Shown in pieces: positions 2 to 30,835 of a DNA stretch of 64,000 nucleotides. The number at the start of each line of letters is the position of its first letter. Position 1 is the stretch's first letter. Origin of the DNA: an uncultured Alphaproteobacteria bacterium (GTDB lineage Bacteria; Pseudomonadota; Alphaproteobacteria; RF32; CAG-239). The stretch covers positions 58,485-122,484 of the forward strand of contig CAJGCO010000001.1 of the NCBI GenBank assembly GCA_904501925.1, in the 5' to 3' direction. A program made the translations under genes and the position numbers. The notes under the pieces were generated by a model, which made no database searches, was not told the origin of the DNA, and saw nothing but the letters and a program-made list of their open reading frames with translations.

Positions 2-121
2 ATATTCTTTACATTTATGATGGGACATTTTGCATCTGGCTTGATAATATATTGGACATTGAGCAATATATTATCTATCATTCAACAAAAAGCTATTATG
101 AAAAAAAATGGAGTTAAATAA
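2..121 (+). CDS. yidC: YidC membrane insertase, C-terminal end only (gene begins upstream of the window)
   Basis: Frame 2 reads [39 protein letters not shown]. The GLxxYW..SN..S..QQ tail is typical of YidC/Oxa1. The TAA stop at 119-121 overlaps the next ATG (TAATG). Confidence 0.7.
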
Positions 122-762
122 TGGATAACAACATTCAAGAACAAGAAGCAATCCGATTGAAAGCTGGTGTTGAGCTTTTTAACAAACGCTGTGATTTTGT
201 ATTAAGTGTAGCGAATCTAAATCAACTACCACATGATGACAGAGTTGAAATCGCTTTTGCTGGTCGTTCGAATGTTGGTAAATCAAGTCTTATAAATGCT
301 CTGTTTGGGCAAAAGAAATTAGCAAAAACATCTGCTACGCCAGGAAGAACTCAACAATTAAATTATTTCAACTTAAATGACAAGTTATATGTTGTTGACC
401 TTCCTGGGTATGGATTTGCTAAAGCACCAAAAGATATTGTAAAAAGCTGGCAAAAATTAATTAACACTTATTTGGTTGGAAGAGCTAGTTTGAGAAGAGT
501 TTTTCTTTTAATTGATTCTAGACATGGTGTTAAAAAAATTGATGAAGAGATAATGGATATGTTAGATAAAGCTGCTGTAACATATCAAATTGTATTAACT
601 AAGATTGATAAAATTTCAGAGAGTGCATTAAATAGAGTATTAGACGAGACTAAAAAGGTTGTCGATAAACATACTGCGGCACATATTAACATTCTTAAGA
701 CAAGTTCTGAAAAGAATCTTTATTTAGATTATTTAAAAGCTGAAGTGGCTGAATTGCTTTAG
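121..762 (+). CDS. engB: Ribosome-biogenesis GTPase EngB/YihA/YsxC
   Basis: G1 motif GRSNVGKSSLINAL, DLPGYG (G3) and LTKIDK (G4). The 213-aa size fits the family. Confidence 0.9.
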   Translation: MDNNIQEQEAIRLKAGVELFNKRCDFVLSVANLNQLPHDDRVEIAFAGRSNVGKSSLINALFGQKKLAKTSATPGRTQQLNYFNLNDKLYVVDLPGYGFAKAPKDIVKSWQKLINTYLVGRASLRRVFLLIDSRHGVKKIDEEIMDMLDKAAVTYQIVLTKIDKISESALNRVLDETKKVVDKHTAAHINILKTSSEKNLYLDYLKAEVAELL

Positions 763-1838: not shown

Positions 1839-4800
1839 CTAAATAGATAAATCCATTTCGCTTAAATCATCCTCATCATCTATTTGCATTATTTCTGATC
1901 CATCAGCTGATGGTGGTGGTAATCCTCCAGTGTATGCATTTTGTTTTTGTTCTGAGTATTGAGCTGGCTCACCATCCATTAATGATGGAGCTGGTTCATT
2001 ATTATTTACTGCTTGTTGATTTTGTCCGTTACCATTGGATACAGCTTCTGCTGTCTCTGGCTCACCATCCATAAGAACATTTTTAGCAACACCGCCACCA
2101 ATACTTTGCGCTCCTTCTTTTACATCCTTGGTTGTTCTTAACCACAAATCAGCCATTGGATAAATTATAATTCTTGTACCTGCTGGAACATATGTTACAG
2201 GTTCGATTAATTTCTTGCTTTCAATAATCTCATTTAATATTTCATCCATACGCTCTAAGAAATTTGTACGCGCATCAGTTGCTGCTTGCTGTTTTGAGGT
2301 TTCTACTTGAGAATTTGCTGCGGCATCTTCATTGGCTGCCATCATATATGAAATAGCTGAAGTTGCTACAGTACCAACTAAAGGTAAACCATATTTTTTA
2401 GTTAGTTGCTCATCAACATAACCTAAAGCACCACCGCCACGACCTTGAGCATCACCTGTTTGTGCTGAAGATATATCAAACGCTATTCCATCTGGACGAA
2501 TTATTCTTTCCCATTTGATTTCAATTTTTACACCACCACTAGTGCTATCAAATCTTTCATCTGTACCAAAATCTTGCAGACCACCTATGATACGACTACC
2601 AGCTGGAATAATTACATTACGCCCACTATCACCATATATATTTCGTTCTACAATTGCCGTTGCAGGTGCACCACCTAAAGATATTAAAGATCTTGCCATA
2701 ACTGCTGGAATTGGTTTATCTGCTGTCACAACATTACTCATATCAACTCGTAATGTTGATATAATTTTGTTTGGTGCAACAGAACCCCAATCATCTTGCC
2801 AACCTGTATACGCTTTAAAATCGCCACCAGAAGAAATAACTCCACCTGATAAAACATCTCTTCTCATTTTAAATTTTGCATCTAACATCTGAGCTCTTAA
2901 TGGATTATAGCGTCCACCAGGGCCTATTCCACCACCAGGGCCAACATTTGTAGCGTCAGGAGTTGGTGCATATGGAGTTGTGATTACATTTTGTGTTATT
3001 TGATTAAAATTTTTATCTATTTCTTGATTATCTAACTTATCTTGGACACGCTGATATTCACCAATTTCATTGCCGTTTTCATCAAAAACAGTTCCATTTT
3101 CATCAACTTCTCCTATAGTCTGACCAGATTGATCTATTACCTTACCAGTATTAGTGATATCTCCTATATAATTACCACCTGGAGTTATTGCGATACCTAT
3201 AATTTGATGATTTGCATGACTTTTTTTACCTTTATGGTTAGAAGCGCCCTTATCAACTGTTATATTTTCGCCAATATCTTCTATCTTTTCTTTATTTTCT
3301 TTATTTTCTATTTTGGTTTCTTGAGGTGTTTTCTCTTTTTTTTCTTTGGTTGTTATTATATTTTCCTCTTCTAACTTTTCTTCTTTTGGTTCTTTTTCAT
3401 CATTCTTGATTTCTTCTTTTTTTACATCAAATTCTTCTTTTGATGCTGGCTCATTATCTTGTTCTAAATTTTCACTTTCAGCTATATCTGGTGAGATATC
3501 TTGATTATCTGGCTGAGCAGGTACACGATAATATTGAAGAGGATCTGCTTGAGCTAAAACTGTATCATCAGAATTAACAACATTTCCGTCTTGACTTAAT
3601 TGACCTACTTTTATGTTTTTAGTATTTACAACACTTCCATCAAAATTTAAATAACCAATAACTTCTTTGTTATTATTTCTGATATAATAATCTCTTGAAC
3701 CTCTAGCGATAAGTTCTTTCTTTTTATTTAACACAAACCCTTCATAAATAGAACCAATCATCTCGCCCATTATACTATAAACATCACCATTTTTTGAAAT
3801 ATATCCAACAGTATTGTGGTCATTATCATATACGTATAAATCAAATAACGCGTATCCAGAACTTCCATCTGTTTTAACTACTTTACCATTATGTTGAACT
3901 TTACCTAAAATAGCTCCATTATCTGATAAAACATTACCATTAATATCAACACGTCCTAAATAAATATTATTATCATCAAAAGCGATTGTATACTTAAATA
4001 GAACACCTAAATTGCTTGATCCTTTTGATGAAATATTTCCATTTGTATTTATTCTTGCAACTTCTATGCCTTGGTTATCGATAACGCTTCCTGATATGTT
4101 TGTATATCCTATTATTTTATCATCAAAACCCATTATTGATGCTATAGTTATTTTTTGACCAACAATCTCTTTTTGAGAATTACGAATAAGGCCTAGAGTA
4201 TCTTGGCAACCTATTTTTTTATTTTGATAATCCAATGCAACACCTAAAGAGTTTTGAACACCAATTACATCGCCTTTTTCGCCAACAACAACACTAGGCT
4301 CCACAACATAACCTATAACTTCTTGGCTATCATTTAATACTTGATTATTTGCTAATACTGTACCGATATAAGCGCCTGAATAATTTCTTGCTTCACCTCT
4401 TTGTGATATGATACCTATATACTCACAATTTTTATTGATTACTACACCTTGAGGAGCACTCGCACCTAGTATTGCACCAGTATTATCTAAAGCATATTTA
4501 TCTGATGCTATCTTTCCTATTATTGAATTATCTTTTATAATGGAACCATCAATTAATATATTACCAATATAATCACCATTTATGCTTACGCTACTAATAG
4601 AGCTTAAAGCGTTCTGATTGCTATTTATTGTATTTGTGTTATAATTTGCAATATAACCTAATGGTAACACTTTACCGAAAATATTATTTTTACTTATAAC
4701 TAAATTTGTAGGATTTATATCTCCAATTTTTTTACCAAGTATATCTGTTAAAAAAACTTCTCCAATATTTTTTCCTAATATTTTATTATTTTTATCCCAT

Positions 4801-6248
4801 AAAATGCCTATACTATTTAGCTTTGAGATATCATTAATAGAATTATTATCACTATTTCCTGATGTTGTCATATAGGATAAAAATGTTCCACTATTAGTGT
4901 ATAAACCGGACAACAAGTAGTTATTTCCAACTACTTTATCTGTATTAAACACGTATCCATTAGGGCTAATTACATATAATTCATCTCCAATATTTAATTT
5001 ACTTGAGATACCATTTATACCTAAAAAATTGTTATTATTATCGTATATTAACCTTGTTTGTAGAACTTCACCAATATATTTTCCTGATTTGTCATATCCT
5101 TTATTTTTAAGCATTGCGCCTCTTTCTAAACCATCTAAAGATATAACTCGACCATCTATGCCTGCTAGTGCTATGTTTTCACCTAAATAATCAAACAAAG
5201 GACCTGTGTGATTTACATAACCTATAACGTCTCCCCTTGCATTAATAGCATTTCCTGAGATACCTATTTTACCAATTTCTTCTCTTGCTTTAACTACTTT
5301 TCCATTTGGCATTAAACGTCCAAGATATTTTCCATCTATTGTATTGAATGTTGCTGATATTGGTATACTATATCCTATTTGTTTTCCATTAGCATCTATT
5401 ATGCGTGCTCCATTTACAGCAATAGCTACAATCTTCTTTTTGTTTATTACATCACCATTATAGCTAATATGACCTAAATATTTACCATTATAATCAAACG
5501 CATATCCTCGATTAACTGCACTACCTACAACCTGCATTTTTTTATCGTAAACATAACCATTGGCATGAATATTTCCTATTGTTACATTTTTAGAATCTAT
5601 TACTTTTCCATCTGAGGCTACACCACCTAAAAACTTACCTTTTGAAGATACTATAAACTTTGAAGAAACTATTTTACCTGATAGGACAGGTTTTTTACTA
5701 TTTAACTCAAAAGTATAAACCTCACCTGTCGATGTTACAAAACCATTATTTCTACCTTGTAAATCATAAAAATAACCATCGCCAGATACTCGACCTATTA
5801 CAGTTCCTTTATCTGTATATACTAAGTTATCTCCAGAAACTACTGAACCTAAAACATCGTAATTATCATTTACAACAAGTCCACTTGGTAATACTTTTCC
5901 AACCAAGCTATTTGTCATTGATACAACAGATCCATCATTATTAACTTTACCAAGTACTGTATTTTTATTAGATATTACTACACCTTGAGGAACAACACCA
6001 CCGATTAACTCATCTTTACCATCAAAAACATACCCATCTGGGGTTATATACCCAATTAATTCATTATTAAAGTTTATAACATTACCATCAGGCACAACCT
6101 TTCCTATTAGGTCTCCATTAAAATCGATAGCGCTAATATCTGATGCTTGGGATTGCAAACTAAAGCTTAATAAAAACATTAAACTCAATATCATCCCATT
6201 TATTTTTGATATAGACTTTAACAACTTAATTCCTCCGATTTTGAGCAA
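1839..6248 (-). CDS. virB10: Giant VirB10/TrbI-family protein (up to 1469 aa): signal-anchor, about 860 aa repeat region, E/K-rich spacer, VirB10 core, C-terminal extension
   Basis: The core at about nt 2120-2790 reads ISTLRVDMSNVVTADKPIPAVMARSLIS..IIPAGSRIIGG..GVKIEIKWERIIRPDG..VTYVPAGTRIIIYPMADLWL, which is TrbI/VirB10-like. The track start at 6248 is a TTG. A GGAGGA at 6231-6236 favours the in-frame TTG at 6224, with an ATG at 6194 as the alternative. The N-terminus LKSISKINGMILSLMFLLSFSLQSQA looks like a signal or anchor. Confidence 0.85.
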   Translation of the reverse strand: MLKIGGIKLLKSISKINGMILSLMFLLSFSLQSQASDISAIDFNGDLIGKVVPDGNVINFNNELIGYITPDGYVFDGKDELIGGVVPQGVVISNKNTVLGKVNNDGSVVSMTNSLVGKVLPSGLVVNDNYDVLGSVVSGDNLVYTDKGTVIGRVSGDGYFYDLQGRNNGFVTSTGEVYTFELNSKKPVLSGKIVSSKFIVSSKGKFLGGVASDGKVIDSKNVTIGNIHANGYVYDKKMQVVGSAVNRGYAFDYNGKYLGHISYNGDVINKKKIVAIAVNGARIIDANGKQIGYSIPISATFNTIDGKYLGRLMPNGKVVKAREEIGKIGISGNAINARGDVIGYVNHTGPLFDYLGENIALAGIDGRVISLDGLERGAMLKNKGYDKSGKYIGEVLQTRLIYDNNNNFLGINGISSKLNIGDELYVISPNGYVFNTDKVVGNNYLLSGLYTNSGTFLSYMTTSGNSDNNSINDISKLNSIGILWDKNNKILGKNIGEVFLTDILGKKIGDINPTNLVISKNNIFGKVLPLGYIANYNTNTINSNQNALSSISSVSINGDYIGNILIDGSIIKDNSIIGKIASDKYALDNTGAILGASAPQGVVINKNCEYIGIISQRGEARNYSGAYIGTVLANNQVLNDSQEVIGYVVEPSVVVGEKGDVIGVQNSLGVALDYQNKKIGCQDTLGLIRNSQKEIVGQKITIASIMGFDDKIIGYTNISGSVIDNQGIEVARINTNGNISSKGSSNLGVLFKYTIAFDDNNIYLGRVDINGNVLSDNGAILGKVQHNGKVVKTDGSSGYALFDLYVYDNDHNTVGYISKNGDVYSIMGEMIGSIYEGFVLNKKKELIARGSRDYYIRNNNKEVIGYLNFDGSVVNTKNIKVGQLSQDGNVVNSDDTVLAQADPLQYYRVPAQPDNQDISPDIAESENLEQDNEPASKEEFDVKKEEIKNDEKEPKEEKLEEENIITTKEKKEKTPQETKIENKENKEKIEDIGENITVDKGASNHKGKKSHANHQIIGIAITPGGNYIGDITNTGKVIDQSGQTIGEVDENGTVFDENGNEIGEYQRVQDKLDNQEIDKNFNQITQNVITTPYAPTPDATNVGPGGGIGPGGRYNPLRAQMLDAKFKMRRDVLSGGVISSGGDFKAYTGWQDDWGSVAPNKIISTLRVDMSNVVTADKPIPAVMARSLISLGGAPATAIVERNIYGDSGRNVIIPAGSRIIGGLQDFGTDERFDSTSGGVKIEIKWERIIRPDGIAFDISSAQTGDAQGRGGGALGYVDEQLTKKYGLPLVGTVATSAISYMMAANEDAAANSQVETSKQQAATDARTNFLERMDEILNEIIESKKLIEPVTYVPAGTRIIIYPMADLWLRTTKDVKEGAQSIGGGVAKNVLMDGEPETAEAVSNGNGQNQQAVNNNEPAPSLMDGEPAQYSEQKQNAYTGGLPPPSADGSEIMQIDDEDDLSEMDLSI
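3545..6128 (-). repeat. Coding array of 10-11 aa G-x-(V/I)-x-x-(D/N)-G-x-(V/I) hairpin-like units inside virB10. It is a more degenerate version of the repeat in the adjacent giant ORF.
   Basis: Translation example: DLIGKVVPDGNVINFNNELIGYITPDGYVFDGKDELIGGVVPQGVVISNKNTVLGKVNNDGSVV, continuing to about aa 900. Four to five more units lie at about nt 3050-3215, after the E/K-rich spacer (about 3250-3520). Confidence 0.8.
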
Positions 6249-9200
6249 CTTCTTCTAGCACATATCCTGAAACTTTATTTTTTGTGTTTACATATGCACC
6301 ATTACTCTTTAGATAACCTATTTTGCCATTAGTAATACTTAGAACTTCACCTGTTGGAGATACTCGTCCAGAATACTTACCGTCATTGCTTAGTATATTA
6401 GCACCTATTTTATATGTATGTCCTATAATTTTTCCGTTATTATCAACAACTAAATTTGAAGATATTAGTTTTCCAATAATATTTTTATCATTATCTGTTA
6501 ATTTTCCTTCGCTATTAACATATCCAACGACTTTGTCTGATGTATTAACTACGATACCATCATCAATAAGTTCGCCAATAAGATTTCCTTTACTATCAAT
6601 TACTTTTGATGTATTTAATACTTTTCCAATTATTTCTTTGTTTTTAGAAATAACTCGTCCACTTGCATCAACAACACCAATTATACTTCCTGAAAAATCA
6701 ACAACAGTACCTCTTTTTAGTAAACTATAATTTTTATTTGAGCTACCACCTGGTAGAATTGTTGTTTCAACCTTATTTTCATCGTTTATTACATCGCCTA
6801 GAGAATTAACATAACCTTTTACATCTCCAAGAGTATCAATAACAAAATCCTCTTTTATTACTTCTCCGATTATTTTTTTGTTTAAATTTAATATATGGCC
6901 ATCAGAACTAACTATACCACTGATTTGACCATCAACATCTATAACTTTTCCTGATTTTGTTACATATCCTAAATAAGAACCGTCATACCCCATTCCAATA
7001 CCTGTTTTTACAACACTACCTTTGTAAAGACCTTTTTCATCAAACATTTGACCTAAAGCATCAATATGGCCTTTTATGTTACCCTTATAATCAATAACAT
7101 CTCCGTTATCATTTACAAAACCAATATAATCACCATAAAAGTCTACTACATTTCCTTTAGGGAGAATGTTACCTACTTTATTGGAATAAAAACCATTTAT
7201 ACCATATGATATTTTATCAACGGCTGCACCCTTTGAATTATATATATATCCGTCATAGAATAATCGACCTATGATATTACCATTTGCACCGATTACTGAT
7301 GTTTTTTCATTAAATAAATGAGCTACAATTTCTTTTTTGTTATTTACAATATAATCATTTAGCATAATTGTTGTGTTTGGCATTATACTTTGACTATCAT
7401 ATCCATAAGGAGATATATCTCCAAGATATTGTCCGTTATTATCAAATAATTGTTTTTTATCAATAACTTTACCAATAACAAATCCATCTATATTTGTAAC
7501 TTCTCCATCTATATTTGCACATCCGATTGTTTGCATTCCTGATTTGATTTTTCCATCACTACCAATAACACCTAAATTATCACCATTATAGTAAAGTGCA
7601 AATGATGGCTCATAAACGCGCCCAATTAATTCGCCTTTAGCATTAAGAACTTTTCCTTCTGGGTTTACGCATCCTACTCTTTGTCCGGCGCTATTAATAA
7701 CAAATCCATCACTTTTTGCTTGTCCAATTAGGTTACATTTATTATCTCTAACTGGCCCCATTAGAGCAACATCACCAACATATCGCCCTTTTTCATCAAC
7801 AATACTTCTATCAAAAAGCATTCTATATTGAGTGTCTTTACCATCTTTCTTGACTTTACCGTCTTTATCTACATATCCGAGATTTCTGCATCCCCAACTA
7901 ACGGCTAAACCACCCATAACGGCTTTTCCAATTATTACATTATTTTCTTTTGCTTTAATTAAATTATTTGGTAAAACTTGGCCTATTACTTCTTGTTTGG
8001 CATTTACTATTTCACCTTTGTTATTTATTGCACCAAGAGAGTATCCTGCAGGTGAAATTGCTATTAAATCCTTATTTACAACAGCGCCAATTTTTATACC
8101 CTTACTTGAGATTACATTACCATTTTCATCGATAAAACCGATGGAAATTCCATCAAAATTATATACCTTACCATTACTTGCAATGTATCCGATAACATTA
8201 CCATTCGCATCAACTGCAAGATTGGAATATCCACCAACAAGACCTTTTATATTACCTTTTGAATCTACTACAAATTCCATAATATCACCGGCTTTACCAA
8301 TAATATTACCATTTGCATCAACAATATTACCATTTTTATCTAATTTTCCAATGATATTACCATTGAAATCTCTAGCTATTCCATTTTCATCAATGTAACC
8401 AATTACGTTACCATTTGCATCTAATACTGCACGTCTTTTGGCTATATTTAGATCACCACTTGTTTTAGGTGAAACTCTACCAATTATTTCACCATTTACA
8501 CCTATAACATTACCGTTTTCATCAACTATGCCAATAATTTCACCATTTTTACCAATAACCTGACCTAGCTCATTAACATACCCTATAACATTACCATTTT
8601 CATCAAGAGCTACGGTTTGATAATCTCCGGCATAGCCGATTACATTTCCGTTTACATCGTGAATTACACCGTCTTCACCTAAATAACCGATTAAATTTCC
8701 TTCAAAATCCATTACGTTACCATTTTCATCAACGTAACCAATAACATTACCATCTTTATCATACGCTAGACGACGTGTTTCTTTTGCACTTCCAATTTTC
8801 TCGCCAGTTAAACCTATAATATTACCATTTTCGTCAACATATCCTATTAATTTACCATCTTGCGAATAAACTTTACCATCGTCATCAATATATCCTATTA
8901 CATTGCCATCTTTATCTAATGCTAAAGTTTTGGCTTCGCCTACTTTACCGATAACTTTACCATTTTTATCTGTTATTGTTCCGTCTGGATTAACTTGACC
9001 AATTACATTGCCATTAAAGTCATACACCTTTCCATCTTCGCCAACATAACCTATAACATTACCATTTTCATCATATGCAAGCCTTGCTTTCTTTCCGGCA
9101 GTTCCAATGATTTCATCTGTTTTACTGATAACATTTCCATTTTCATCAACAAACCCTATCTCTTCACCTTTTAGGTTTCTTACTATTCCGTTTTCATCAA

Positions 9201-12200
9201 CAAAACCTATAACATTACCATTTTCATCATAAACAAGATTTCTTGATTCACCTGCTTTACCAATAATATTGCCGTTTTTATCAACAATATTTCCATTTTC
9301 ATCAACTTTACCGATTATATTACCATTAGCATCTATTACATTGCCATTTTCATCTATGTAACCGATGACATTACCATCTTTATCATAGGCAATTCGAGCT
9401 GTTTTACAAGACGAACAAATTTTTTCGCCAACAGCAAATACTTCTTTTTTATTTGATATATGCCCGATAATTTTTCCATCTTTATTATAGGCGATTAAAC
9501 CATCTTTAGTATAACCAATATTTTCATTTATGTTATTTCTGATTGTTTTTCCATCTTGATCTAACTTACCTATCACATTGATTTTAGCAGATAAAACATT
9601 ACCTTTATCATCTAACACTCCTTTAACTTGTTTGTTTTGAGCATATACAATTTTATTATCAAAAACATATCCAATAACAGTGTTATCTTTATTTTGTGCA
9701 ACATTTGTTTCATAACCAATTTTTCCAATTAGATTGCCTCGTTTATCAATAACTTTATTTTTGTTATTAGTTCCAATTTCTTTTCCATTAAAGTTTTTTA
9801 CAATATTCTTTTTATCTAGATAACCAATCACATTGTTATTTTCATCAAGTGCTAGTTTTTTCTTAACGCAAGTTTTACCTAGTATTTTTTCACCTGATTT
9901 GATTATATTACCATTTGCATCAACATAACCTATAATTTTTCCAGTATGATCTCTAACTAGGCCATTTTCATCGATATAGCCAATTACGTTTCCATCTTTG
10001 TCTAGTGCTACTTTTTGAATATCGCCTGCTTTACCGATAACATTACCATTTTTATCTACAATGGTACCATCTGCTAGCATTTTACCGATTAAATTACCAT
10101 TAAAATCTTTTACCAAACCATTTTCATCAATATAACCAATTACATTACCATCTTTATCGTATGCTAAGCGACGTGTTGGTGCGGCCTTTCCTATAATTTC
10201 ACCACTTGTTCCAATAACATTACCTTGCTCGTCTACTATTCCAATAACTTTACCATTGGCGTCTATTACTTGTCCTTTTTCATTAACGTATCCGATAATA
10301 TTACCATTTTCATCAACGGCTAACATTCCGTAATCACCGGCTTTACCAATAATTTTTCCACTAGCATCTACAATATTACCATCTTTATCAACTTTACCGA
10401 TAACATTACCATTAAAGTCTTTAACAGTACCATCTTCATCTATATACCCGATTACATTACCATCTTTATCGTATGCTAAACGACGTGATAAATTAGCTTT
10501 TCCTAAAATTTTTCCATCTGTTCCAATAATATTACCATTTTCATCTACATAGCCTTTTATTTGACCATCTTTACCAATTATTCTACCTTTTTCATCTACA
10601 TACCCCATTACATTACCATCTTTATCAAATGCTAATGTTGCGTAGTCGCCAGCTTTTCCAATAATGTTACCATTTTTATCTATAATATTACCATCTTTAT
10701 CAACTTTACCTATTATATTACCTTCAAAATCAATAACATTACCATTTTCATCTATATAACCAATTGGTTTACCATCTTTTCCAAGAGCTAAACGGCGTTG
10801 TTGGGTTGTTGGTTCACCTGAAGTACTTACTATGTTTCCATTTTCATCAACTACGCCTATTTGTTTACCATTTTTATCAAAAACACGACCATTTTCATCT
10901 ATGTAACCAATTACATTTCCATCTTTATCTAATGCAAGTTTTCCATAAGCTCCAGCTTTACCAATAATATTGCCGTTTTTATCAACAATATTACCGTCTT
11001 TATCAACTTTACCTATTATGTTTCCATCAAAATCAATAACGTTACCATCTTTATCTACATAACCTATTACATTACCATCTTTATCGTATGCTAAACGACG
11101 AGATGCGCCTACTTTACCAATAATTTCTTTATCTTTTTCTAAATCATCAAATTTTACAATTTTTCCATTTTCATCAATATAGCCAATTGCCTTGCCATTT
11201 TCATCATATACAAGTTTTCGGCTATCACCATTGGAACCTATTTTTTCATTTGATGTTCTGTAAACATTGCCGTTCTCGTCAACATAACCGATAATATTAC
11301 CATCCTTATCAACGACACTATTATCAGGCATAACAACACCTATAACGTTACCATTTTCATCGACAACGACGTTACCTGAAGAGGTTACTCTTCCTATTAT
11401 ATTACCATTTGCATCAACAACTTCACCATTAGCATTAAGACGGCCAATAACTTTTTTGCTATCATTTATATCAACAACTGTACCATCTGGCAAAACACGA
11501 CCAATTATTCTACCGTTTTCATCATACACAAATCCAGCTTCAACAACATTTCCTATAACATTACCATCTTTATCGACTATCGTACCATCGGGAAGTGCTC
11601 GACCAATAACCTCGCCTTTAGAATTAACAACAGTTCCATCTGCTTGGACGTAACCAATGAAATTGCCATCTTTATCATAAGCTAAACGTAAATTTTGTGC
11701 TACACCAATGATTTCGCCGTTTTCATTTACAATCATACCATTTTCATCTACTCGGCCAATTATATTACCATTTTCATCAAATACTAAGCCGTTTTCATCA
11801 ATATAACCGATAATTTCGCCATTAGGACCAATAGCTAAACGACGAGATGAAGAGCCACCAGTTACATCAATAGAACAATCTTTTGAACCAGAACATTTTG
11901 ATGCAGCATCTTCTGGATATACAGCACTTCCCCTGATGCTTATAACTTTTGACTTGGCACTAGATTTATCTAATCTTGTTTCATACCAAGTTATCTTAAA
12001 GTTGTTTTGCATATTACCAGGTAGGTGTGGTGTCCAGCTTATTTCTATTTCGCAACTTTCGTCTCCTCGCAAATCGCGATTTTTACATTTATTTCTAAAA
12101 TCAAAACCATCTTCGGTTTCAGCAACTAATTCTACTTTATCTATGTGTATACTCTCAGAACCATCTGTGCTTATTGTTATAATACTTTGATTAATAGCAT

Positions 12201-12498
12201 CTACACCCAATGTAAATGTTCTCATATTTACTTCTTCTGGTGTTACAACGATGAGTTCTTTTCGATCTGTTATTAAACTATCTTCAGGAGTGATTTCAAC
12301 ATCACTTTCATTGTATATATTAGGAACAATGCTTTGATTTTCAACAAATTCAGGTTCTTCACTTTCTGGATCTTGTACCTCGTTGTTGATTGATATTACT
12401 AATAAGCCAAATAGGAATAATACAAATGCTATTATTCCCATAATGACAAATATCATACGTGTCTTTTTTTCATATTCCTCAAAACGCGTTTCGCTCAT
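6226..12498 (-). CDS. Giant (2090 aa) membrane-anchored repeat protein of unknown function, encoded between virB9 and virB10
   Basis: A single uninterrupted ORF. Its ATG overlaps the virB9 stop (ATGA at 12495-12498). Its stop at 6226-6228 lies between the virB10 RBS (GGAGGA) and the candidate TTG start at 6224. It has an N-terminal TM helix (MIFVIMGIIAFVLFLFGLLVISI), then an Ig-like-looking segment (aa about 85-195, with Cys residues), then repeats to the C-terminus. Confidence 0.85.
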   Translation of the reverse strand: MSETRFEEYEKKTRMIFVIMGIIAFVLFLFGLLVISINNEVQDPESEEPEFVENQSIVPNIYNESDVEITPEDSLITDRKELIVVTPEEVNMRTFTLGVDAINQSIITISTDGSESIHIDKVELVAETEDGFDFRNKCKNRDLRGDESCEIEISWTPHLPGNMQNNFKITWYETRLDKSSAKSKVISIRGSAVYPEDAASKCSGSKDCSIDVTGGSSSRRLAIGPNGEIIGYIDENGLVFDENGNIIGRVDENGMIVNENGEIIGVAQNLRLAYDKDGNFIGYVQADGTVVNSKGEVIGRALPDGTIVDKDGNVIGNVVEAGFVYDENGRIIGRVLPDGTVVDINDSKKVIGRLNANGEVVDANGNIIGRVTSSGNVVVDENGNVIGVVMPDNSVVDKDGNIIGYVDENGNVYRTSNEKIGSNGDSRKLVYDENGKAIGYIDENGKIVKFDDLEKDKEIIGKVGASRRLAYDKDGNVIGYVDKDGNVIDFDGNIIGKVDKDGNIVDKNGNIIGKAGAYGKLALDKDGNVIGYIDENGRVFDKNGKQIGVVDENGNIVSTSGEPTTQQRRLALGKDGKPIGYIDENGNVIDFEGNIIGKVDKDGNIIDKNGNIIGKAGDYATLAFDKDGNVMGYVDEKGRIIGKDGQIKGYVDENGNIIGTDGKILGKANLSRRLAYDKDGNVIGYIDEDGTVKDFNGNVIGKVDKDGNIVDASGKIIGKAGDYGMLAVDENGNIIGYVNEKGQVIDANGKVIGIVDEQGNVIGTSGEIIGKAAPTRRLAYDKDGNVIGYIDENGLVKDFNGNLIGKMLADGTIVDKNGNVIGKAGDIQKVALDKDGNVIGYIDENGLVRDHTGKIIGYVDANGNIIKSGEKILGKTCVKKKLALDENNNVIGYLDKKNIVKNFNGKEIGTNNKNKVIDKRGNLIGKIGYETNVAQNKDNTVIGYVFDNKIVYAQNKQVKGVLDDKGNVLSAKINVIGKLDQDGKTIRNNINENIGYTKDGLIAYNKDGKIIGHISNKKEVFAVGEKICSSCKTARIAYDKDGNVIGYIDENGNVIDANGNIIGKVDENGNIVDKNGNIIGKAGESRNLVYDENGNVIGFVDENGIVRNLKGEEIGFVDENGNVISKTDEIIGTAGKKARLAYDENGNVIGYVGEDGKVYDFNGNVIGQVNPDGTITDKNGKVIGKVGEAKTLALDKDGNVIGYIDDDGKVYSQDGKLIGYVDENGNIIGLTGEKIGSAKETRRLAYDKDGNVIGYVDENGNVMDFEGNLIGYLGEDGVIHDVNGNVIGYAGDYQTVALDENGNVIGYVNELGQVIGKNGEIIGIVDENGNVIGVNGEIIGRVSPKTSGDLNIAKRRAVLDANGNVIGYIDENGIARDFNGNIIGKLDKNGNIVDANGNIIGKAGDIMEFVVDSKGNIKGLVGGYSNLAVDANGNVIGYIASNGKVYNFDGISIGFIDENGNVISSKGIKIGAVVNKDLIAISPAGYSLGAINNKGEIVNAKQEVIGQVLPNNLIKAKENNVIIGKAVMGGLAVSWGCRNLGYVDKDGKVKKDGKDTQYRMLFDRSIVDEKGRYVGDVALMGPVRDNKCNLIGQAKSDGFVINSAGQRVGCVNPEGKVLNAKGELIGRVYEPSFALYYNGDNLGVIGSDGKIKSGMQTIGCANIDGEVTNIDGFVIGKVIDKKQLFDNNGQYLGDISPYGYDSQSIMPNTTIMLNDYIVNNKKEIVAHLFNEKTSVIGANGNIIGRLFYDGYIYNSKGAAVDKISYGINGFYSNKVGNILPKGNVVDFYGDYIGFVNDNGDVIDYKGNIKGHIDALGQMFDEKGLYKGSVVKTGIGMGYDGSYLGYVTKSGKVIDVDGQISGIVSSDGHILNLNKKIIGEVIKEDFVIDTLGDVKGYVNSLGDVINDENKVETTILPGGSSNKNYSLLKRGTVVDFSGSIIGVVDASGRVISKNKEIIGKVLNTSKVIDSKGNLIGELIDDGIVVNTSDKVVGYVNSEGKLTDNDKNIIGKLISSNLVVDNNGKIIGHTYKIGANILSNDGKYSGRVSPTGEVLSITNGKIGYLKSNGAYVNTKNKVSGYVLEEVAQNRRN
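6229..11847 (-). repeat. Coding array, roughly 150-180 units by eye, of a 10-11 aa motif (D/N)-x-(D/N)-G-x-(I/V)-(I/L)-G-x-(V/I)
   Basis: Example: RRLAYDKDGNVIGYVDKDGNVIDFDGNIIGKVDKDGNIVDKNGNIIGKAG. The array runs from RRLAIGPNGEIIGYIDENG (aa about 219) to the stop. The C-terminal half is more degenerate. Confidence 0.85.
8400..11110 (-). repeat. Higher-order tandem super-repeat of about 305-315 bp (about 100-105 aa, about 9 short units each), 9-10 copies
   Basis: The (R/K)RLAYDKDGNVIGY landmark recurs on the DNA near 11095, 10790, 10480, 10165, 9860, 9385, 9075, 8770 and 8440. Copies share long near-identical stretches such as attaccatctttatcgtatgctaaacgacg. Confidence 0.7.
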
Positions 12499-14351
12499 CG
12501 TATCCTAACCACACTACAAATAATACCATTTACCCCTAATTGACTACATATTCTATCTCCGTCTTCTATTGTACGAATTGGGCCTACTCTTAAATGAAAC
12601 ACCTCTCTACCTTGACCATCAGCAGGTGTGTCTACAGAATAGAATGGTTCATATTTTCCTATAACTGCAGGATAGTTTTTAGAGATATCAGACCATAATC
12701 TCTCTAAATTATTTATATTTTGATCAGTACCTAACTCTATTGATATTGAACTATTATCTTGAACTGATTGTTTTACTTTGTTTTGTTTAAAAGATGATAA
12801 TATATCTCTTGTTTTTGGTGTCATTAGTATATCATCATCAGGTATTGTATTATTTTGTATTGTGTTTTTGTTTGTTAAATTAGATGAATTAATGTTTTCA
12901 ACTTCATGATTTATAATATCTGCTCCATTTTTTACATCATCTTGAAGACTTTCTATACTTTCTGAAGATGTGTATTCTGGAACTATGATTACTCCATCTC
13001 CAACATTTAATTTAACTTGTTCTACAGGGGCTTTTTCTGGACTGATTGATTCACCTACAATTGGAACAACCTTTGGAATATCATTCACATTGGGAACATT
13101 TTTAGTTATTTTGCTATATTCCTCCAATATTTCTTCAACATTCTTCATTTCATTGCTGTCATTTTTCTTATTTTTATTATCTTTTTTGAAAAAGGAATCG
13201 AACCAACCTTCTTCTTCCTCTGTATCTGCTACACCTTCTGAATAATAAACATCATTTATATCTTTTTCAGAGATGTTTTCATTAGATGTTTTTTCGTTTG
13301 TATCTCTTTGAGAGGCGTATCTATTTTGTACATCCCATTCATTACTTGGAGCATAAACAGCATTTTCTAAACCATCTGTGTCTGCTCTGCGTAATTTTAA
13401 GCAAACCATACGTTTTCCTGAACGTAATACCATATCACCCATTCCCTCAACAATAATCAATCTATTGTTTGGGCCAGCTGCTCTAAAACCAACTGGGGTT
13501 TCTGAACGTTCTACAATTAGAGTAACAATAGGACGTTGAACTGCTGTTAGTGATTTTTCTCCTAAATCAATATATGTAAATATATTATCACGCCATACAC
13601 GCTCTGGAGCAATAATAATATCATCTGGATTTGGAACATATACTTCAATATCAAATCTAAATTGTGTTGGGTCTACTGGTATCTTTTGTATCCAATCTTC
13701 CTTTTGCAAATTACTTGTGTATGTCATTGCTCCACTATTTGTAGAACCACCATTTCCACCTTGATAGCCTGAAGATAAATTATTACCTGATGCGCCACCC
13801 TTGTTATTTTCTAATACTTCAATATCGATAATTGCATTGGTAATTCTATCTGTGTTAAATGTTTCACTTTGCATATAAAATACATACTTATTGCCTGAAC
13901 GACCAAAAACAATCATATTAGTATCTACACCAACAAAACTAGACGCATTTGGATATACTAAAAGGCTAGTTGGACCATTAATTTCTGCTTGAAAAGACTT
14001 TGTATCACCGATGTAAACATTTTCGATTATTTCCCAATTTGGAAAATTAATAAGTGTATACATACCTTCACGCACTCTTAATGGTAAAACTAAATCAGGT
14101 GTCCAATAATATTTAGTATAGCCAGGACGAGTTTGACCTTCACCCATATGTTGAAGAGGATCTTTCCACGCACTTTGTATCATACCTAAAGATCCACCAC
14201 CACCTAAGTAATTTAGGTTTGTAGATGCATAATTGCCTTGACTTTGGTCAGCACTCTGATCAAGTGTATCTTTGGTTACTTGAGCATTTACGGCAGTAGC
14301 AACCACTGACATAAGTAAAACAACTGATAGTATTTTATACATTTTAATCAT
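12495..14351 (-). CDS. virB9: VirB9/TrbG/CagX-family outer-membrane core protein (618 aa) with a long low-complexity linker and a C-terminal SPOR-like domain
   Basis: Signal peptide MIKMYKILSVVLLMSVVATAVNA. The VirB9-like N- and C-domains include YYWTPDLVLPLRVREGMYTLINFP, MIVFGRSGNKYVFYM, RFDIEVYV and PIVTLIVERSETPVGFR..MVLRSGKRMVCLKLRR. The last 84 aa (nt 12498-12749) read SISIELGTDQNINNLERLWSDISKNYPAVIGKYEPFYSVDTPADGQGREVFHLRVGPIRTIEDGDRICSQLGVNGIICSVVRIR, which fits the SPOR pattern. Confidence 0.85.
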   Translation of the reverse strand: MIKMYKILSVVLLMSVVATAVNAQVTKDTLDQSADQSQGNYASTNLNYLGGGGSLGMIQSAWKDPLQHMGEGQTRPGYTKYYWTPDLVLPLRVREGMYTLINFPNWEIIENVYIGDTKSFQAEINGPTSLLVYPNASSFVGVDTNMIVFGRSGNKYVFYMQSETFNTDRITNAIIDIEVLENNKGGASGNNLSSGYQGGNGGSTNSGAMTYTSNLQKEDWIQKIPVDPTQFRFDIEVYVPNPDDIIIAPERVWRDNIFTYIDLGEKSLTAVQRPIVTLIVERSETPVGFRAAGPNNRLIIVEGMGDMVLRSGKRMVCLKLRRADTDGLENAVYAPSNEWDVQNRYASQRDTNEKTSNENISEKDINDVYYSEGVADTEEEEGWFDSFFKKDNKNKKNDSNEMKNVEEILEEYSKITKNVPNVNDIPKVVPIVGESISPEKAPVEQVKLNVGDGVIIVPEYTSSESIESLQDDVKNGADIINHEVENINSSNLTNKNTIQNNTIPDDDILMTPKTRDILSSFKQNKVKQSVQDNSSISIELGTDQNINNLERLWSDISKNYPAVIGKYEPFYSVDTPADGQGREVFHLRVGPIRTIEDGDRICSQLGVNGIICSVVRIR

Positions 14352-15143: not shown

Positions 15144-15332
15144 TTAAACAGATGCATTAAACCAATCTGGCAATGTCTTAGGTAATTCTACTTCAATACA
15201 TGCACAAGGTGAAAGTTTTAATTCATATACGTCTTTACCTACGCCAACTGGCTCTGGCTCATAGTAGCTACCCAACATGTTACAAGCAGCCAAAACAGCT
15301 ATTATCATAAATAGAAATATCTTTTTTAACAT
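15144..15332 (-). CDS. virB7: Small lipoprotein in the VirB7 position
   Basis: 62 aa with a lipobox (AVLAAC). It sits between two virB8 paralogs, as RvhB7 does in Rickettsiales. There is no family-specific sequence motif beyond size, lipobox and position. Confidence 0.55.
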   Translation of the reverse strand: MLKKIFLFMIIAVLAACNMLGSYYEPEPVGVGKDVYELKLSPCACIEVELPKTLPDWFNASV

Positions 15333-22997: not shown

Positions 22998-23000
22998 AAT

Positions 23001-23687
23001 TTATTCCTCCACATCATTTTTTATTTTATTTTTAAGTTCAAGAGAATCTACGGCTGTAATCATATATGCTCTAATTTCAAGAATACGTGATAGACGCTTT
23101 TGACTGTTTAATACAACTTTATTTTGAGATGATAAAATAGTTTCAGATGATTGTGTTGCATTCTCGTATGGATATAATTCTTGGCTATCTTCATCTATAA
23201 TACTTTGGTGTGTGGCCATTGCTTTGGCAAATAATACGGAAATATCTTTTACAATTGTTGCATTGATATTTTCTGCTAAACTTTTCTGAACATCAAGAGA
23301 TTTATCTTGTCCTTTTTTGTATATGTAAGTATCTGATATTTTTTTTGCTAAATCTGTAGGATCTTCAGCTGCAATATCACCTTCATCTAAACCAGAACCC
23401 TCTAGGGCAACCACACCTGTTATTGGTGTTATCTGAGAACCTCCACTTCCACAAAGCTCTGGTAAATAATTACATATCTCACCTAAAAAACCTTGTTTAA
23501 GTTTTTCTTTTGCATCTTCAATTGAGTTTTTAACTTCTTCTACTTGTTTTTTTACTTCATCAACATGTTTCATTACTGTTTGAAGTAAAGCTACAAAATC
23601 AAACACAGCATGAGCTTCTCTTGCAAAGAGCATAAATGATAAAAACACAGCTATTAATAATCTACTCTTCATCTCGAATCTCCCCAA
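23001..23687 (-). CDS. VirB5/TrbJ-like minor pilin/adhesin candidate (about 223 aa from the internal ATG at 23672)
   Basis: Signal MKSRLLIAVFLSFMLFAREAHA, then VFDFVALLQTVMKHVDEVKKQVEEVKNSIEDAKEKL. Compare the (I)PVFD start of mature TrbJ/VirB5. The size matches canonical VirB5. Confidence 0.55.
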   Translation of the reverse strand: MGRFEMKSRLLIAVFLSFMLFAREAHAVFDFVALLQTVMKHVDEVKKQVEEVKNSIEDAKEKLKQGFLGEICNYLPELCGSGGSQITPITGVVALEGSGLDEGDIAAEDPTDLAKKISDTYIYKKGQDKSLDVQKSLAENINATIVKDISVLFAKAMATHQSIIDEDSQELYPYENATQSSETILSSQNKVVLNSQKRLSRILEIRAYMITAVDSLELKNKIKNDVEE

Positions 23688-25899: not shown

Positions 25900-25929
25900 A
25901 CTACATAATACTATATATCATATACTAAA

Positions 25930-30358: not shown

Positions 30359-30368
30359 AGCACCCTCC

Positions 30369-30816: not shown

Positions 30817-30835
30817 TTATTATTTATTAGTAAAC

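What the first reader, a model, noticed from the sequence alone, without database searches (positions are those of the whole stretch)
6226..12498. A 2090-aa membrane-anchored protein made almost entirely of DxxGxxIGxV units is embedded between virB9 and virB10
The gene is translationally coupled to virB9 (ATGA overlap), and its stop lies between the virB10 RBS and the candidate virB10 start. It is therefore expressed as part of the T4SS core operon, at a position that is empty in canonical virB operons. Its architecture is one TM helix, an Ig-like-looking beta segment, and then about 1870 aa of 10-11-residue units such as VDKDGNIVDKNGNIIGKAG. The strict Gly spacing and alternating hydrophobics suggest stacked beta-hairpins forming a fibre, solenoid or propeller. 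The D-x-D/N-G-N signature invites a test for Ca2+ binding. I know of no described T4SS component of this kind. From memory the unit resembles RHS/YD hairpins and the GKV-type repeat of the DUF3659 family, but that needs checking.
Basis: partly seen in the sequence, partly recalled or inferred. Interest (0 to 1): 0.85.

Follow-up and report, generated by a model that had tools for sequence, protein, structure and literature searches.

The report
Detached inner-membrane half of giant VirB10
The 2090-residue repeat protein between virB9 and virB10 is real, and it is best read as the inner-membrane half of an oversized VirB10 secretion-channel protein that has been split into two genes in a group of uncultured gut bacteria.

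Summary
The ORF at 6226-12498 (-) is real, and intact collinear orthologs occur in at least 24 species-level MAGs of uncultured gut and rumen Alphaproteobacteria. It always lies between virB9 and virB10. It always has an ATGA overlap with virB9, and the virB10 start always comes 1-2 nt after its stop. Its repeat belongs to the known beta-flower/DUF3659 family (Pfam PF21785, 1.5e-141). The true periods are a 17-aa hairpin, a 52-aa module and a 104-aa super-repeat, not 10-11 aa. The downstream VirB10 carries the same repeat and starts with a Sec signal peptide instead of the canonical membrane anchor. In sister lineages a single 1500-2350-aa protein directly after virB9 combines this protein's N-terminus with beta-flower repeats and the C-terminal TrbI/VirB10 barrel. 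That N-terminus comprises a conserved cytoplasmic motif, a TM helix and an ASH/PapD-like Ig domain. A TrbI tree places all split forms in one clade. So this is not a new component in an empty slot. It is the detached inner-membrane half of a giant, repeat-expanded VirB10. It parallels CagY and DotG but uses a different repeat, and the gene fission has no described precedent that I found. How the two halves associate, and what the beta-flower array does, is inferred rather than shown.

The parts
6226..12498 (-). Gene X: 2090-aa bitopic beta-flower repeat protein, read here as the detached N-terminal half of a giant VirB10
   Evidence: ORF and translation. Pfam Bflower_2 1.5e-141, Bflower 1.4e-94, DUF3659 1.6e-67. 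Intact orthologs in at least 24 genomes.
12457..12498 (-). Cytoplasmic tail, aa 1-14 (MSETRFEEYEKKTR), with the conserved juxtamembrane motif [ED]xYx[KR]K[ST][NR]R
   Evidence: T4, F6, E7, E8, Y9, E10, K12 and T13 are invariant in 14 sequences. The motif is shared with fused giant VirB10s.
12388..12456 (-). Single transmembrane helix, aa ~15-37. Predicted orientation is N-terminus in, C-terminus in the periplasm.
   Evidence: It is the only Kyte-Doolittle segment above 1.6. AF2 helix 5-37 with pLDDT 85-91. The orientation is inferred from the Lys/Arg residues placed before the helix.
12199..12387 (-). Acidic, poorly conserved linker, aa ~38-100
   Evidence: AF2 pLDDT below 50 over 54-103. The columns are variable in A1.
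11899..12198 (-). ASH/PapD-like Ig domain, aa ~101-200, with invariant Cys138 and Cys149
   Evidence: AF2 beta-sandwich with pLDDT 70-80. Foldseek top hits are 6fvi (CEP192 ASH), HYDIN PapD-like and MSP domains. Pfam ASH is weak at 0.0037, below cut-off. This is among the most conserved parts across orthologs, 0.79-0.86 mean pairwise identity.
11095..11838 (-). Repeat zone 1, aa 221-468: five less regular 40-54-aa modules, highly conserved between species
   Evidence: Module parsing. Mean pairwise identity 0.75-0.89 between species.
8275..11094 (-). Repeat zone 2, aa 469-1408: regular 52-aa modules in alternating A/B pairs that form 104-aa super-repeats. This zone expands and contracts between species.
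   Evidence: Ortholog lengths differ mostly by even numbers of 52-aa modules (-2, +2, +4, +6, +8, +20), and the span of strong modules grows with total length. The AF2 model of aa 570-881 has 12 short strands per 104 aa and pLDDT 79.8.
6268..8274 (-). Repeat zone 3, aa 1409-2077: degenerate hairpin repeats. The C-terminal ~490 aa tested (aa 1601-2090) is well conserved even in the distant split clade.
   Evidence: X aa 1601-2090 aligns at 56-63% in all window-clade orthologs and at 44% (1e-119) with the 1102-aa clade-B protein P0068.
6229..6267 (-). Conserved C-terminal tail GYVLEEVAQNRRN. Its last codons encode the Shine-Dalgarno sequence of the next gene.
   Evidence: The tail ...YVLDEVAQNRRN* or a close variant occurs in all 24 complete orthologs parsed, and in clade B.
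6231..6236 (-). GGAGGA ribosome-binding site for the downstream VirB10 gene, lying inside gene X
   Evidence: CGGAGGAA is conserved at the nucleotide level in orthologs.
1839..6224 (-). VirB10' (1461 aa from TTG 6224): signal peptide, ~1000 aa of degenerate beta-flower repeats, a Lys/Glu-rich linker, and the TrbI barrel
   Evidence: Pfam TrbI 7.4e-27 and Bflower_2 1.9e-43. NCBIfam VirB10/ComB10 domain hits. A TTG or GTG start 1 nt after the X stop occurs in nearly all orthologs.
6144..6224 (-). Predicted Sec signal peptide of VirB10' (MLKSISKINGMILSLMFLLSFSLQSQA | SD), in place of the canonical VirB10 cytoplasmic tail and TM anchor
   Evidence: The same layout occurs in 23 orthologs and in clade B: a K/R n-region, a 12-16-aa h-region, AxA, then the conserved mature N-terminus DISA(L/I)(N/D)FNGDLIGKVIPDG. 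No signal-peptide predictor was available, so this was judged by the -3/-1 rule.
2139..2729 (-). TrbI/VirB10 C-terminal barrel domain of VirB10'
   Evidence: Pfam PF03743 at aa 1174-1370 of the ORF as listed from 6248.
12495..14351 (-). VirB9/CagX-family gene (618 aa), whose stop overlaps the start of gene X
   Evidence: Pfam CagX 3e-15. The ATGA overlap is conserved in all loci of the window clade.

Best explanation
Gene X encodes the inner-membrane half of a giant, repeat-expanded VirB10 that has been split into two genes.

Ancestral form. A single polypeptide sat directly after virB9. It had a short conserved cytoplasmic tail, one TM helix, a periplasmic ASH/PapD-like Ig domain, more than 1000 aa of beta-flower hairpin repeats and the C-terminal TrbI barrel of the outer-membrane core complex.

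The split. In the common ancestor of the window's clade and one sister clade the gene was cut inside the repeat array.
- The upstream product (X) kept the tail, the anchor, the Ig domain and the repeats.
- The downstream product (VirB10') acquired a Sec signal peptide and kept repeats plus the TrbI barrel.
- The two are translated in tandem. The ribosome-binding site sits in the last codons of X, and the VirB10' start comes 1 nt after the X stop.

Inferred mechanism.
- X sits N-in/C-out in the inner membrane.
- Its tail contacts the T4SS ATPases or inner-membrane complex, as the N-terminus of canonical VirB10 does.
- Its conserved C-terminal repeat zone binds the repeat region of the periplasmic VirB10' non-covalently.
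- Together they rebuild an envelope-spanning VirB10.
- The variable central array of ~104-aa beta-flower units forms a large periplasmic scaffold around the channel.

Shown: the homology, the architecture, the synteny, the coupling signals, the conservation and the single origin of the split.
Inferred: the topology, signal-peptide cleavage, the X-VirB10' association and the role of the array.
For: - Same repeat in both genes. The module profile gives 41 hits in X, 19 in VirB10' and none elsewhere in the window. Pfam Bflower_2 hits both proteins.
- Fused homologs. A profile of X aa 1-208 matches the N-terminal ~200 aa of P0110 (1930 aa), P0149 (2201), P0163 (2350), P0161, P0171, P0184 and P0193. 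Pfam shows Bflower repeats plus a C-terminal TrbI domain in P0110, P0149 and P0163. BLAST to the window's TrbI region confirms that domain in the others.
- Position of the fused genes. P0149 and P0110 lie directly between virB9 and virB11, and the start of each overlaps the virB9 stop (ATGA in L037, TAATG in L038).
- The cytoplasmic motif before the TM helix is shared by split and fused forms.
- VirB10' starts with a signal-peptide-like sequence in all orthologs, in place of the anchor.
- The NJ tree of TrbI domains puts both split clades in one clade, with the fused forms outside. The fission junction (...EVA[Q/K]N[R/Q]RN*, start 1-2 nt later, mature N-terminus ...ITAI(N/D)FNG...) is the same in both split clades.
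- The order virB8-virB8-virB9-X-virB10-virB11 is strictly conserved in 31 genome loci. X is an intact ORF of 1990-3151 aa in 24 of them. Eleven ~2090-aa orthologs align almost without gaps at 52-89% identity per module.
- Invariant Cys pairs in the Ig domain fit a periplasmic location.
- From established knowledge, not tested here: canonical VirB10 is a bitopic inner-membrane protein whose C-terminal barrel is part of the outer-membrane core complex. It needs its N-terminal anchor to sense the VirD4/VirB11 ATPases.
Against: - No direct evidence that X and VirB10' bind each other. No multimer modelling was available.
- X length varies three-fold across species (1102-3151 aa) while VirB10' stays at ~1385-1446 aa in the window clade and 1411-1586 aa in clade B. 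X is therefore not a simple fixed-length ruler across the periplasm. Fully extended, the array would exceed the periplasmic width.
- The C-terminal zone of X has no specific collinear counterpart in the fused proteins beyond generic repeat similarity.
- Signal-peptide cleavage of VirB10' is predicted only from sequence rules. If uncleaved, VirB10' would have its own anchor and X would be an extra subunit.
- The tree is NJ, midpoint-rooted, and has no canonical VirB10 outgroup.
Confidence: 0.7

Rival explanations
1. X shares ancestry with the VirB10 N-terminus but now acts as an independent accessory subunit. For example, it could be a periplasmic scaffold or cell-wall-binding spacer that positions the machine, without pairing specifically with VirB10'.
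For: [quoted passage not shown]
- Foldseek finds local hairpin likeness to choline-binding and CROP carbohydrate-binding repeats.
- VirB9 here has a weak SPOR-like C-terminus.
- X length varies while VirB10' does not.
Against: - The tight stop/start coupling to VirB10' is conserved in both split clades.
- VirB10' lacks an anchor of its own.
- The structural matches are local only, with TM about 0.1.
- The SPOR hit is below Pfam's cut-off.
Confidence: 0.15
2. The repeat array is displayed on or beyond the cell surface as a fibre or adhesin of the T4SS, as was proposed for the CagY repeats. It would mediate contact with host cells or other bacteria in the gut.
For: - The protein is a very long modular array in gut and rumen commensals.
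- Copy number differs between species in 104-aa steps.
- CagY and DotG offer a precedent (PMC2194252; PMC6761968).
Against: - The N-terminal TM anchor is uncleaved and carries a conserved cytoplasmic tail.
- Purifying selection acts on each module, and alignments across 11 species are nearly gap-free.
- Clusters at 90% identity have invariant length, for example the 15 listed members of the 141-member P0149 cluster are all 2201-2202 aa.
- The DNA repeats are only 60-83% identical, a poor substrate for CagY-like recombination.
Confidence: 0.1
3. X is an RHS/YD-repeat polymorphic toxin or other cargo that happens to be encoded in the operon.
For: - Pfam RHS_repeat sum score of 109 bits and NCBIfam YD_repeat_2x at 101.8 bits.
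- Weak PDB sequence hits to the Rhs effector Tse15, 4e-5.
Against: - No individually significant RHS stretch.
- No Rhs core or C-terminal toxin domain; the protein ends in hairpin repeats and the NRRN tail.
- Foldseek TM to Rhs cocoons is 0.10.
- Fused homologs end in TrbI.
Confidence: 0.02
4. The ORF is an assembly artefact or a decaying pseudogene made of collapsed or expanded repeats.
For: - Short-read metagenome contigs of relatives are often broken or frameshifted here. L001 has a 65-nt deletion relative to the otherwise 100%-identical L010. L002 contains Ns. L003 is chimeric.
Against: - Twenty-four independent MAGs give intact ORFs with conserved start, end and module order.
- The repeats are diverged at the DNA level.
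Confidence: 0.02

Closest known systems
Canonical VirB10 / TrbI family (A. tumefaciens VirB10, pKM101 TraF, R388 TrwE)
   Same: X has the N-terminal layout of VirB10: a short cytoplasmic tail, one TM helix and a periplasmic extension. Its gene sits directly after virB9. Fused homologs carry the TrbI barrel.
   Different: X has no TrbI domain; that domain is on the next gene, which starts with a signal peptide. The Pro-rich linker of ~100 aa is replaced by an Ig domain plus more than 1800 aa of beta-flower repeats.
Helicobacter pylori CagY
   Same: CagY is a VirB10 ortholog enlarged to ~1900 aa by internal repeats ahead of a conserved C-terminal VirB10 domain (PMC5954226, PMC2581425).
   Different: CagY repeats are alpha-helical modules encoded by near-identical DNA repeats that recombine in frame within a host. 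Here the repeats are beta-hairpins, the DNA copies are 60-83% identical, and length is invariant among the listed members of 90% clusters. CagY is one polypeptide; here the protein is split.
Legionella DotG (IcmE)
   Same: DotG is a VirB10 homolog of ~1000 aa with an N-terminal anchor, a variable repeat-containing middle and a conserved C-terminal TrbI domain. A separate inner-membrane partner (DotF) acts with it (PMC6761968).
   Different: The DotG repeats are pentapeptide repeats in a type IVB system. X belongs to a virB-type operon and uses beta-flower repeats. DotF is not derived from DotG, whereas X is the detached N-terminus itself.
Beta-flower proteins (Pfam PF21784/PF21785/PF21786, clan CL0395) and DUF3659 (PF12396)
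   Same: Strong profile matches and the [DNEQ]xxG hairpin-tip motif. One Bflower_2 match (aa 1142-1242) covers almost exactly one 104-aa super-repeat.
   Different: The described examples are small proteins of ~100 aa, single-domain, some lipoproteins, many with a C-terminal helix, and of unknown function. Here the repeat region runs to ~1870 aa (about 36 of the 52-aa modules) without helices, inside a T4SS core subunit.
RHS/YD-repeat proteins
   Same: Local beta-hairpin sequence pattern (x-Y-D-x-x-G-N) and local 3Di similarity.
   Different: No cocoon fold, no Rhs core and no toxin tip. There are no individually significant repeat matches.

Membership tests
Beta-flower (Pfam PF21785 Bflower_2 / PF21784 Bflower) | Profile match above the curated gathering score | tested here: met
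   Bflower_2 scores 463.2 bits against a cut-off of 38, in 22 stretches. Bflower scores 312.9 bits against 25, in 13 stretches.
Beta-flower (Pfam PF21785 Bflower_2 / PF21784 Bflower) | Semiconserved [DNEQ]xxG motif at the hairpin tips | tested here: met
   185 [DNEQ]xxG occurrences. The module consensus is LAYDKDGNVIGYVDxDGNVxDxxGNIIGKVDKDGNIVDxNGNIIGKA. The motif definition comes from PMC10584680.
Beta-flower (Pfam PF21785 Bflower_2 / PF21784 Bflower) | Shallow closed beta-barrel of 8, 10 or 12 short antiparallel strands (4-, 5- or 6-fold) | tested here: inconclusive
   The AF2 model of aa 570-881 is all-beta with 12 strands of 3-6 residues per 104 aa, pLDDT 79.8 and pTM 0.37. As reported for the family, there is no global PDB match.
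DUF3659 (PF12396) | Profile match above the gathering score | tested here: met
   223.7 bits against a cut-off of 24.8, in 7 stretches. Public records name orthologs 'DUF3659 domain-containing protein'.
RHS/YD repeat proteins | Individually significant YD/RHS repeats | tested here: not met
   PF05593 and TIGR01643 pass only on summed score, with 0 stretches passing on their own.
RHS/YD repeat proteins | Rhs cocoon fold with a core domain and a C-terminal toxin | tested here: not met
   Foldseek TM to Rhs structures is 0.10. The C-terminus is hairpin repeats plus the NRRN tail, and no other domain was hit.
VirB10 / TrbI family (PF03743) | C-terminal TrbI beta-barrel domain | tested here: not met
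   X has no TrbI hit. The domain is in the next gene, aa 1174-1370.
VirB10 / TrbI family (PF03743) | Bitopic N-terminal anchor (short cytoplasmic tail plus one TM helix) and a gene position directly after virB9 | tested here: met
   Single TM helix at aa 15-37 preceded by KKTR. ATGA overlap with virB9. The same N-terminus occurs in seven fused proteins that do carry a TrbI domain.
CagY-type repeat VirB10 | Alpha-helical repeat modules encoded by near-identical, recombining DNA repeats | tested here: not met
   The repeat model contains no helix. DNA copies are 60-83% identical. Length is invariant among the listed members of 90% clusters.
ASH / PapD-like / MSP Ig domains (the N-terminal domain only) | Seven- or eight-stranded Ig-like sandwich with a profile or fold match | tested here: inconclusive
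   Foldseek's top hit is 6fvi (CEP192 ASH domain), E 5e-4 and TM 0.32-0.44, followed by HYDIN and MSP domains. Pfam ASH scores 17.9 bits, below the cut-off of 27. Model pLDDT is only 70-80.

The most novel reading that the evidence does not exclude
This may be a naturally split VirB10. The inner-membrane, ATPase-facing anchor and the outer-membrane gate would lie on separate polypeptides held together only by non-covalent contacts between beta-flower arrays. With about 14 copies of each, these arrays would build a multi-megadalton periplasmic (or partly extracellular) scaffold unlike anything in solved T4SS structures. That would show that covalent continuity of VirB10 is not needed for signalling across the envelope. 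It would also give the beta-flower fold its first functional context.
Probability: 0.35. Interest if true: 0.8.

Novelty: new variant of a known kind. Interest (0 to 1): 0.62.

Why it matters
VirB10 is the one T4SS subunit thought to span both membranes as a single chain and to carry an energy-dependent signal from the inner-membrane ATPases to the outer-membrane gate. This lineage has cut that chain in two and kept both halves under purifying selection in dozens of species. That makes it a natural experiment on whether covalent continuity is required.

The finding also adds a third, independent kind of repeat expansion in VirB10, after the helical repeats of CagY and the pentapeptide repeats of DotG. 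It places the recently named beta-flower fold, which has no known function, inside a defined machine.

The hosts are widespread uncultured Alphaproteobacteria of human and ruminant guts. Their chromosomal T4SS is undescribed, and in public records this protein is named only 'DUF3659 domain-containing protein'.

Tried and rejected
- Exact look-up of X in the contig index found nothing on record.
These were useful for an MSA and for finding clade B, but not for a census.
- The first MAFFT alignments of repeat windows (A3, A4) were out of register, because overlapping windows aligned by identity. I rebuilt the alignment with non-overlapping paralogous windows (A5).
- Foldseek of the repeat model against the PDB gave only local hairpin matches with TM about 0.1. 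The PDB sequence search gave weak WD40 and Rhs hits. Neither is informative beyond excluding a known solved fold.
- Programmed frameshift or readthrough joining X to VirB10' was rejected. The stop codon (TAA, TGA or TAG), the spacer (1, 2 or 7 nt) and the start codon (TTG, GTG or ATG) all vary. The downstream N-terminus is a signal peptide.
- A recurrent frameshift near aa 230 in ENA contigs turned out to be a 65-nt deletion relative to an otherwise identical MAG. I read it as an assembly collapse.
- An early working label of 'VirB6' for the upstream 1815-aa gene was dropped. The protein has only an N-terminal hydrophobic segment and no family hit.
- A search for a collinear counterpart of the X C-terminal zone in fused proteins gave only generic repeat similarity.
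- tblastn of the X N-terminus against the plasmid collection found no match.
- Literature searches for RF32 plus type IV secretion, and for VirB10 plus Bflower, returned nothing.
Full report
**Observation.** The window has a 2090-codon ATG ORF at 6226..12498 on the minus strand.
- Upstream lies a CagX/VirB9-family gene (12495..14351, Pfam 3e-15). Its TGA stop overlaps the ORF's ATG as ATGA.
- Downstream lies a gene with a TrbI/VirB10 domain (Pfam 7.4e-27).
- The ORF's TAA stop (6228-6226) sits between a GGAGGA (6236-6231) and a TTG at 6224 that opens the VirB10 gene.
- The protein has a single hydrophobic segment at aa ~15-37 and then an acidic linker.
- A beta-sandwich follows at aa ~104-195. 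AF2 gives it pLDDT 70-80, and its best PDB fold matches are ASH/PapD-like/MSP Ig domains.
- About 1870 aa of Gly-spaced hairpins follow.

**Repeat anatomy.** The unit length needs correcting.
- Autocorrelation peaks at 17, 52 and 104 residues, not 10-11.
- A 17-aa hairpin consists of a 10-residue and a 7-residue half, each ending in a D/N-x-x-G turn.
- Three hairpins form a 52-aa module that starts with L-A-Y/L-D.
- Alternating A and B modules form 104-aa super-repeats.

I distinguish three zones.
- Zone 1 (aa 221-468) has five irregular but highly conserved modules.
- Zone 2 (aa 469-1408) is the regular array.
- Zone 3 (aa 1409-2077) is degenerate.

A profile built from 11 of the protein's own modules finds 41 hits in this protein and 19 in the downstream VirB10. 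It finds none in any other six-frame ORF of the window. At the DNA level the copies are only 60-83% identical.

**Family of the repeat.** Pfam assigns the repeat to three families.
- Bflower_2 (PF21785): 1.5e-141, 22 stretches.
- Bflower (PF21784): 1.4e-94.
- DUF3659 (PF12396): 1.6e-67.

These are the beta-flower families defined from AlphaFold models by Durairaj et al. (Nature 2023, PMC10584680). They are shallow barrels of four to six hairpins with a [DNEQ]xxG tip motif. They have no PDB relative and no known function. One Bflower_2 match (aa 1142-1242) covers almost exactly one A+B super-repeat.

The RHS/YD hits are summed scores with no individually significant stretch.

An AF2 model of aa 570-881 is all-beta, with 12 short strands per 104 aa and no helices. 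Its mean pLDDT is 79.8 but its pTM is only 0.37. I read this as several small domains with undefined mutual orientation. I could not inspect coordinates, so barrel closure is unverified. Foldseek against the PDB gives only local hairpin likeness to Rhs proteins, toxin CROPs and choline-binding repeats, with TM about 0.1.

**Relatives and synteny.** The non-repeat N-terminus (aa 1-233) has 17 database relatives.
- A pattern scan of GTDB species representatives returned 31 loci. All are uncultured Alphaproteobacteria MAGs from human gut, rumen and other animal guts.
- Wherever the contigs allow, the order is an 1815-aa secreted protein, virB8, virB8, virB9, X, virB10, virB11.
- X is an intact ORF in 24 of these loci, with lengths between 1990 and 3151 aa.
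- In all 24 it starts with the ATGA overlap on virB9 and ends in ...YVLDEVAQNRRN or a close variant.
- Where the downstream sequence could be read (23 of the 24), the next gene starts 1 nt after the stop, or 7 nt in L032.
- Length classes differ mostly by even numbers of 52-aa modules, that is by whole 104-aa super-repeats, and the change lies in zone 2.
- Eleven species with ~2090-aa proteins align over 2096 columns almost without gaps, at 52-89% mean pairwise identity per module.
- Clusters at 90% identity have invariant length.

This is purifying selection on each module, not a hypervariable array.

Broken versions in short-read contigs are assembly problems. L001 equals L010 except for a 65-nt deletion, L002 has Ns, and L003 is chimeric.

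**The key result.** A profile of the N-terminus was searched against 1.84 billion representative proteins. It found two groups.
- The first group is more X-type proteins from a second, more distant clade: P0064 (1361 aa) and P0068 (1102 aa). Both end in ...EVAKNRRN. The clade-B contigs L035 and L036 show the same gene order, with X between virB9 and virB10.
- The second group has the same N-terminus at the start of a protein that ends in a TrbI domain: P0110 (1930 aa), P0149 (2201), P0163 (2350), P0161, P0171, P0184 and P0193.

P0149 and P0110 lie directly between virB9 and virB11, with no separate gene in between. Split and fused forms share the cytoplasmic juxtamembrane motif [ED]xYx[KR]K[ST][NR]R.

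In every split-type genome, VirB10' begins with a signal-peptide-like sequence. This has a K/R n-region, a 12-16-aa hydrophobic core and an AxA site. The conserved mature N-terminus that follows is DISA(L/I)(N/D)FNGDLIGKVIPDG, itself a hairpin repeat. This replaces the cytoplasmic tail and TM anchor that define canonical VirB10.

An NJ tree of TrbI domains places the two split clades together, with the fused forms outside. The junction is the same in both split clades. All other known VirB10s are single chains (established knowledge). Parsimony therefore makes the fused state ancestral and the split a single fission inside the repeat array.

**Mechanism.**
Shown:
- X is homologous to the N-terminal half of giant beta-flower VirB10 proteins.
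- X is translationally coupled on both sides.
- VirB10' lacks the canonical anchor.
- Both halves are conserved.

Inferred:
- X sits N-in/C-out in the inner membrane. This rests on the positive residues before the helix and on the invariant Cys pairs in the Ig domain.
- Its tail takes over the contact with the ATPases or inner-membrane complex.
- VirB10' is exported by Sec and cleaved.
- The two halves associate through their repeat regions. The most likely site is the constant zone 3 of X, whose C-terminal ~490 aa stay 44% identical even in clade B.
- Together they rebuild an envelope-spanning VirB10.
- The variable zone 2 is probably a bulky periplasmic scaffold rather than a ruler. X varies three-fold in length while VirB10' stays at ~1385-1446 aa in the window clade and 1411-1586 aa in clade B.

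I put 0.7 on this overall: about 0.9 for the homology and fission part, and about 0.5-0.6 for the reconstitution mechanism.

**Rivals.**
- An accessory or cell-wall-binding subunit that does not pair with VirB10' (0.15).
- A surface fibre or adhesin as proposed for CagY (0.10). The uncleaved anchor, the per-module conservation, the invariant within-cluster length and the diverged DNA repeats argue against it.
- An RHS toxin (0.02). It fails the defining features.
- An assembly artefact or pseudogene (0.02). Twenty-four intact orthologs contradict it.
- A programmed frameshift joining the two genes. This is rejected because the stop codon, spacer and start codon all vary.

**Comparison with known systems.** The closest functional analogs are two other repeat-enlarged VirB10 homologs.
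- CagY has alpha-helical repeats that recombine within a host (PMC2581425, PMC5954226, PMC2194252).
- DotG has a variable pentapeptide-repeat middle region and a separate inner-membrane partner, DotF (PMC6761968).

The present case differs in three ways: the repeat type is beta-flower, the repeats are stable, and the gene has undergone fission. X itself is a beta-flower/DUF3659 family member by profile, but it lacks the TrbI domain and so is not a Pfam VirB10 member.

I found no paper linking beta-flower or DUF3659 to T4SS, or describing the T4SS of these gut Alphaproteobacteria. Public records call the orthologs only 'DUF3659 domain-containing protein'. There was no match among 72,556 plasmids.

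**Verdict.** The interpretation as a new T4SS component in an empty slot is replaced by a better-supported one: a split, beta-flower-expanded VirB10. I rate it a new variant of a known kind, with interest 0.62.

Noticed in passing
window 29990-31826 (-): Four tandem small genes (122, 103, 136 and 123 aa), each with a signal sequence and hydrophobic segments, lie upstream of a 96-aa VirB3-like gene (29611-29901) and VirB4 (27174-29621). They look like VirB2 pilin paralogs. From memory, multiple VirB2 copies also occur in Rickettsiales and in the Bartonella Trw system.
   Followed up: partly
window 15144-15332 (-): A 62-aa ORF between the two virB8 copies starts MLKKIFLFMIIAVLAAC, which has a lipobox-like L-A-A-C. 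It is probably a VirB7-like lipoprotein. A 62-65-aa gene occupies the same position in L001, L003 and L035-L037, and lies just upstream of the single virB8 in L038.
   Followed up: partly
window 16247-21694 (-): An 1815-aa protein with only an N-terminal signal-like hydrophobic segment has no Pfam or NCBIfam hit. It is conserved (28-39% identity) immediately upstream of virB8 in all related loci. No polytopic VirB6 and no VirD4 or relaxase was recognised in the window.
   Followed up: partly
window 21663-27105 (-): Four consecutive signal-peptide proteins (444, 228, 745 and 391 aa) lie between VirB4 and the 1815-aa gene. Two of them have weak VirB5-type matches to PF07996 (0.0035-0.0047, below the cut-off).
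   Followed up: no
window 12495-14351 (-): VirB9 is 618 aa, about twice the usual size. It has a C-terminal extension with a weak SPOR (peptidoglycan-binding) hit at aa 544-616, E 0.0025 and below Pfam's cut-off.
   Followed up: no
window 33505-42377 (+): A type IVb-pilus or T2SS-like operon lies next to the T4SS. It encodes a TcpQ-domain protein, a secretin, a PilO-like protein, a T2SSE ATPase and a T2SSF platform protein. A further T2SSE-family gene lies on the other strand at 42378-43328.
   Followed up: no
window 121-762 (+) and 43329-63922: The T4SS is flanked by housekeeping genes: an EngB-like GTPase, ATP synthase a and b subunits, a XerC/D-type recombinase, shikimate kinase, RNase PH, AddAB-like helicase-nucleases, a two-component system and UvrC. 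This indicates a chromosomal rather than a plasmid or ICE location.
   Followed up: partly
window 1839-6224 (-), VirB10' aa ~1000-1090: A Lys/Glu-rich low-complexity linker (…KEEFDVKKEEIKNDEKEPKEEKLEEE…) separates the long degenerate repeat region from a last short beta-flower stretch and the TrbI domain.
   Followed up: no
L001 4858-4874, L003 5402-6049, L002: Short-read ENA contigs of relatives are damaged inside this gene. L001 has a 65-nt deletion relative to the otherwise 100%-identical MAG contig L010. L003 is a chimera that joins the X N-terminus to IreB/RuvX/YceG genes. L002 has Ns and frame changes.
   Followed up: yes
window 6001-12000: GC skew on the plus strand is very negative across the gene (-0.36 to -0.44). 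I take this to reflect the Gly/Asp/Asn-rich codon usage of the repeats on the minus strand. Plus-strand ORFs inside it (6323-6730, 7832-8398, 11936-12190) are most likely by-products.
   Followed up: no
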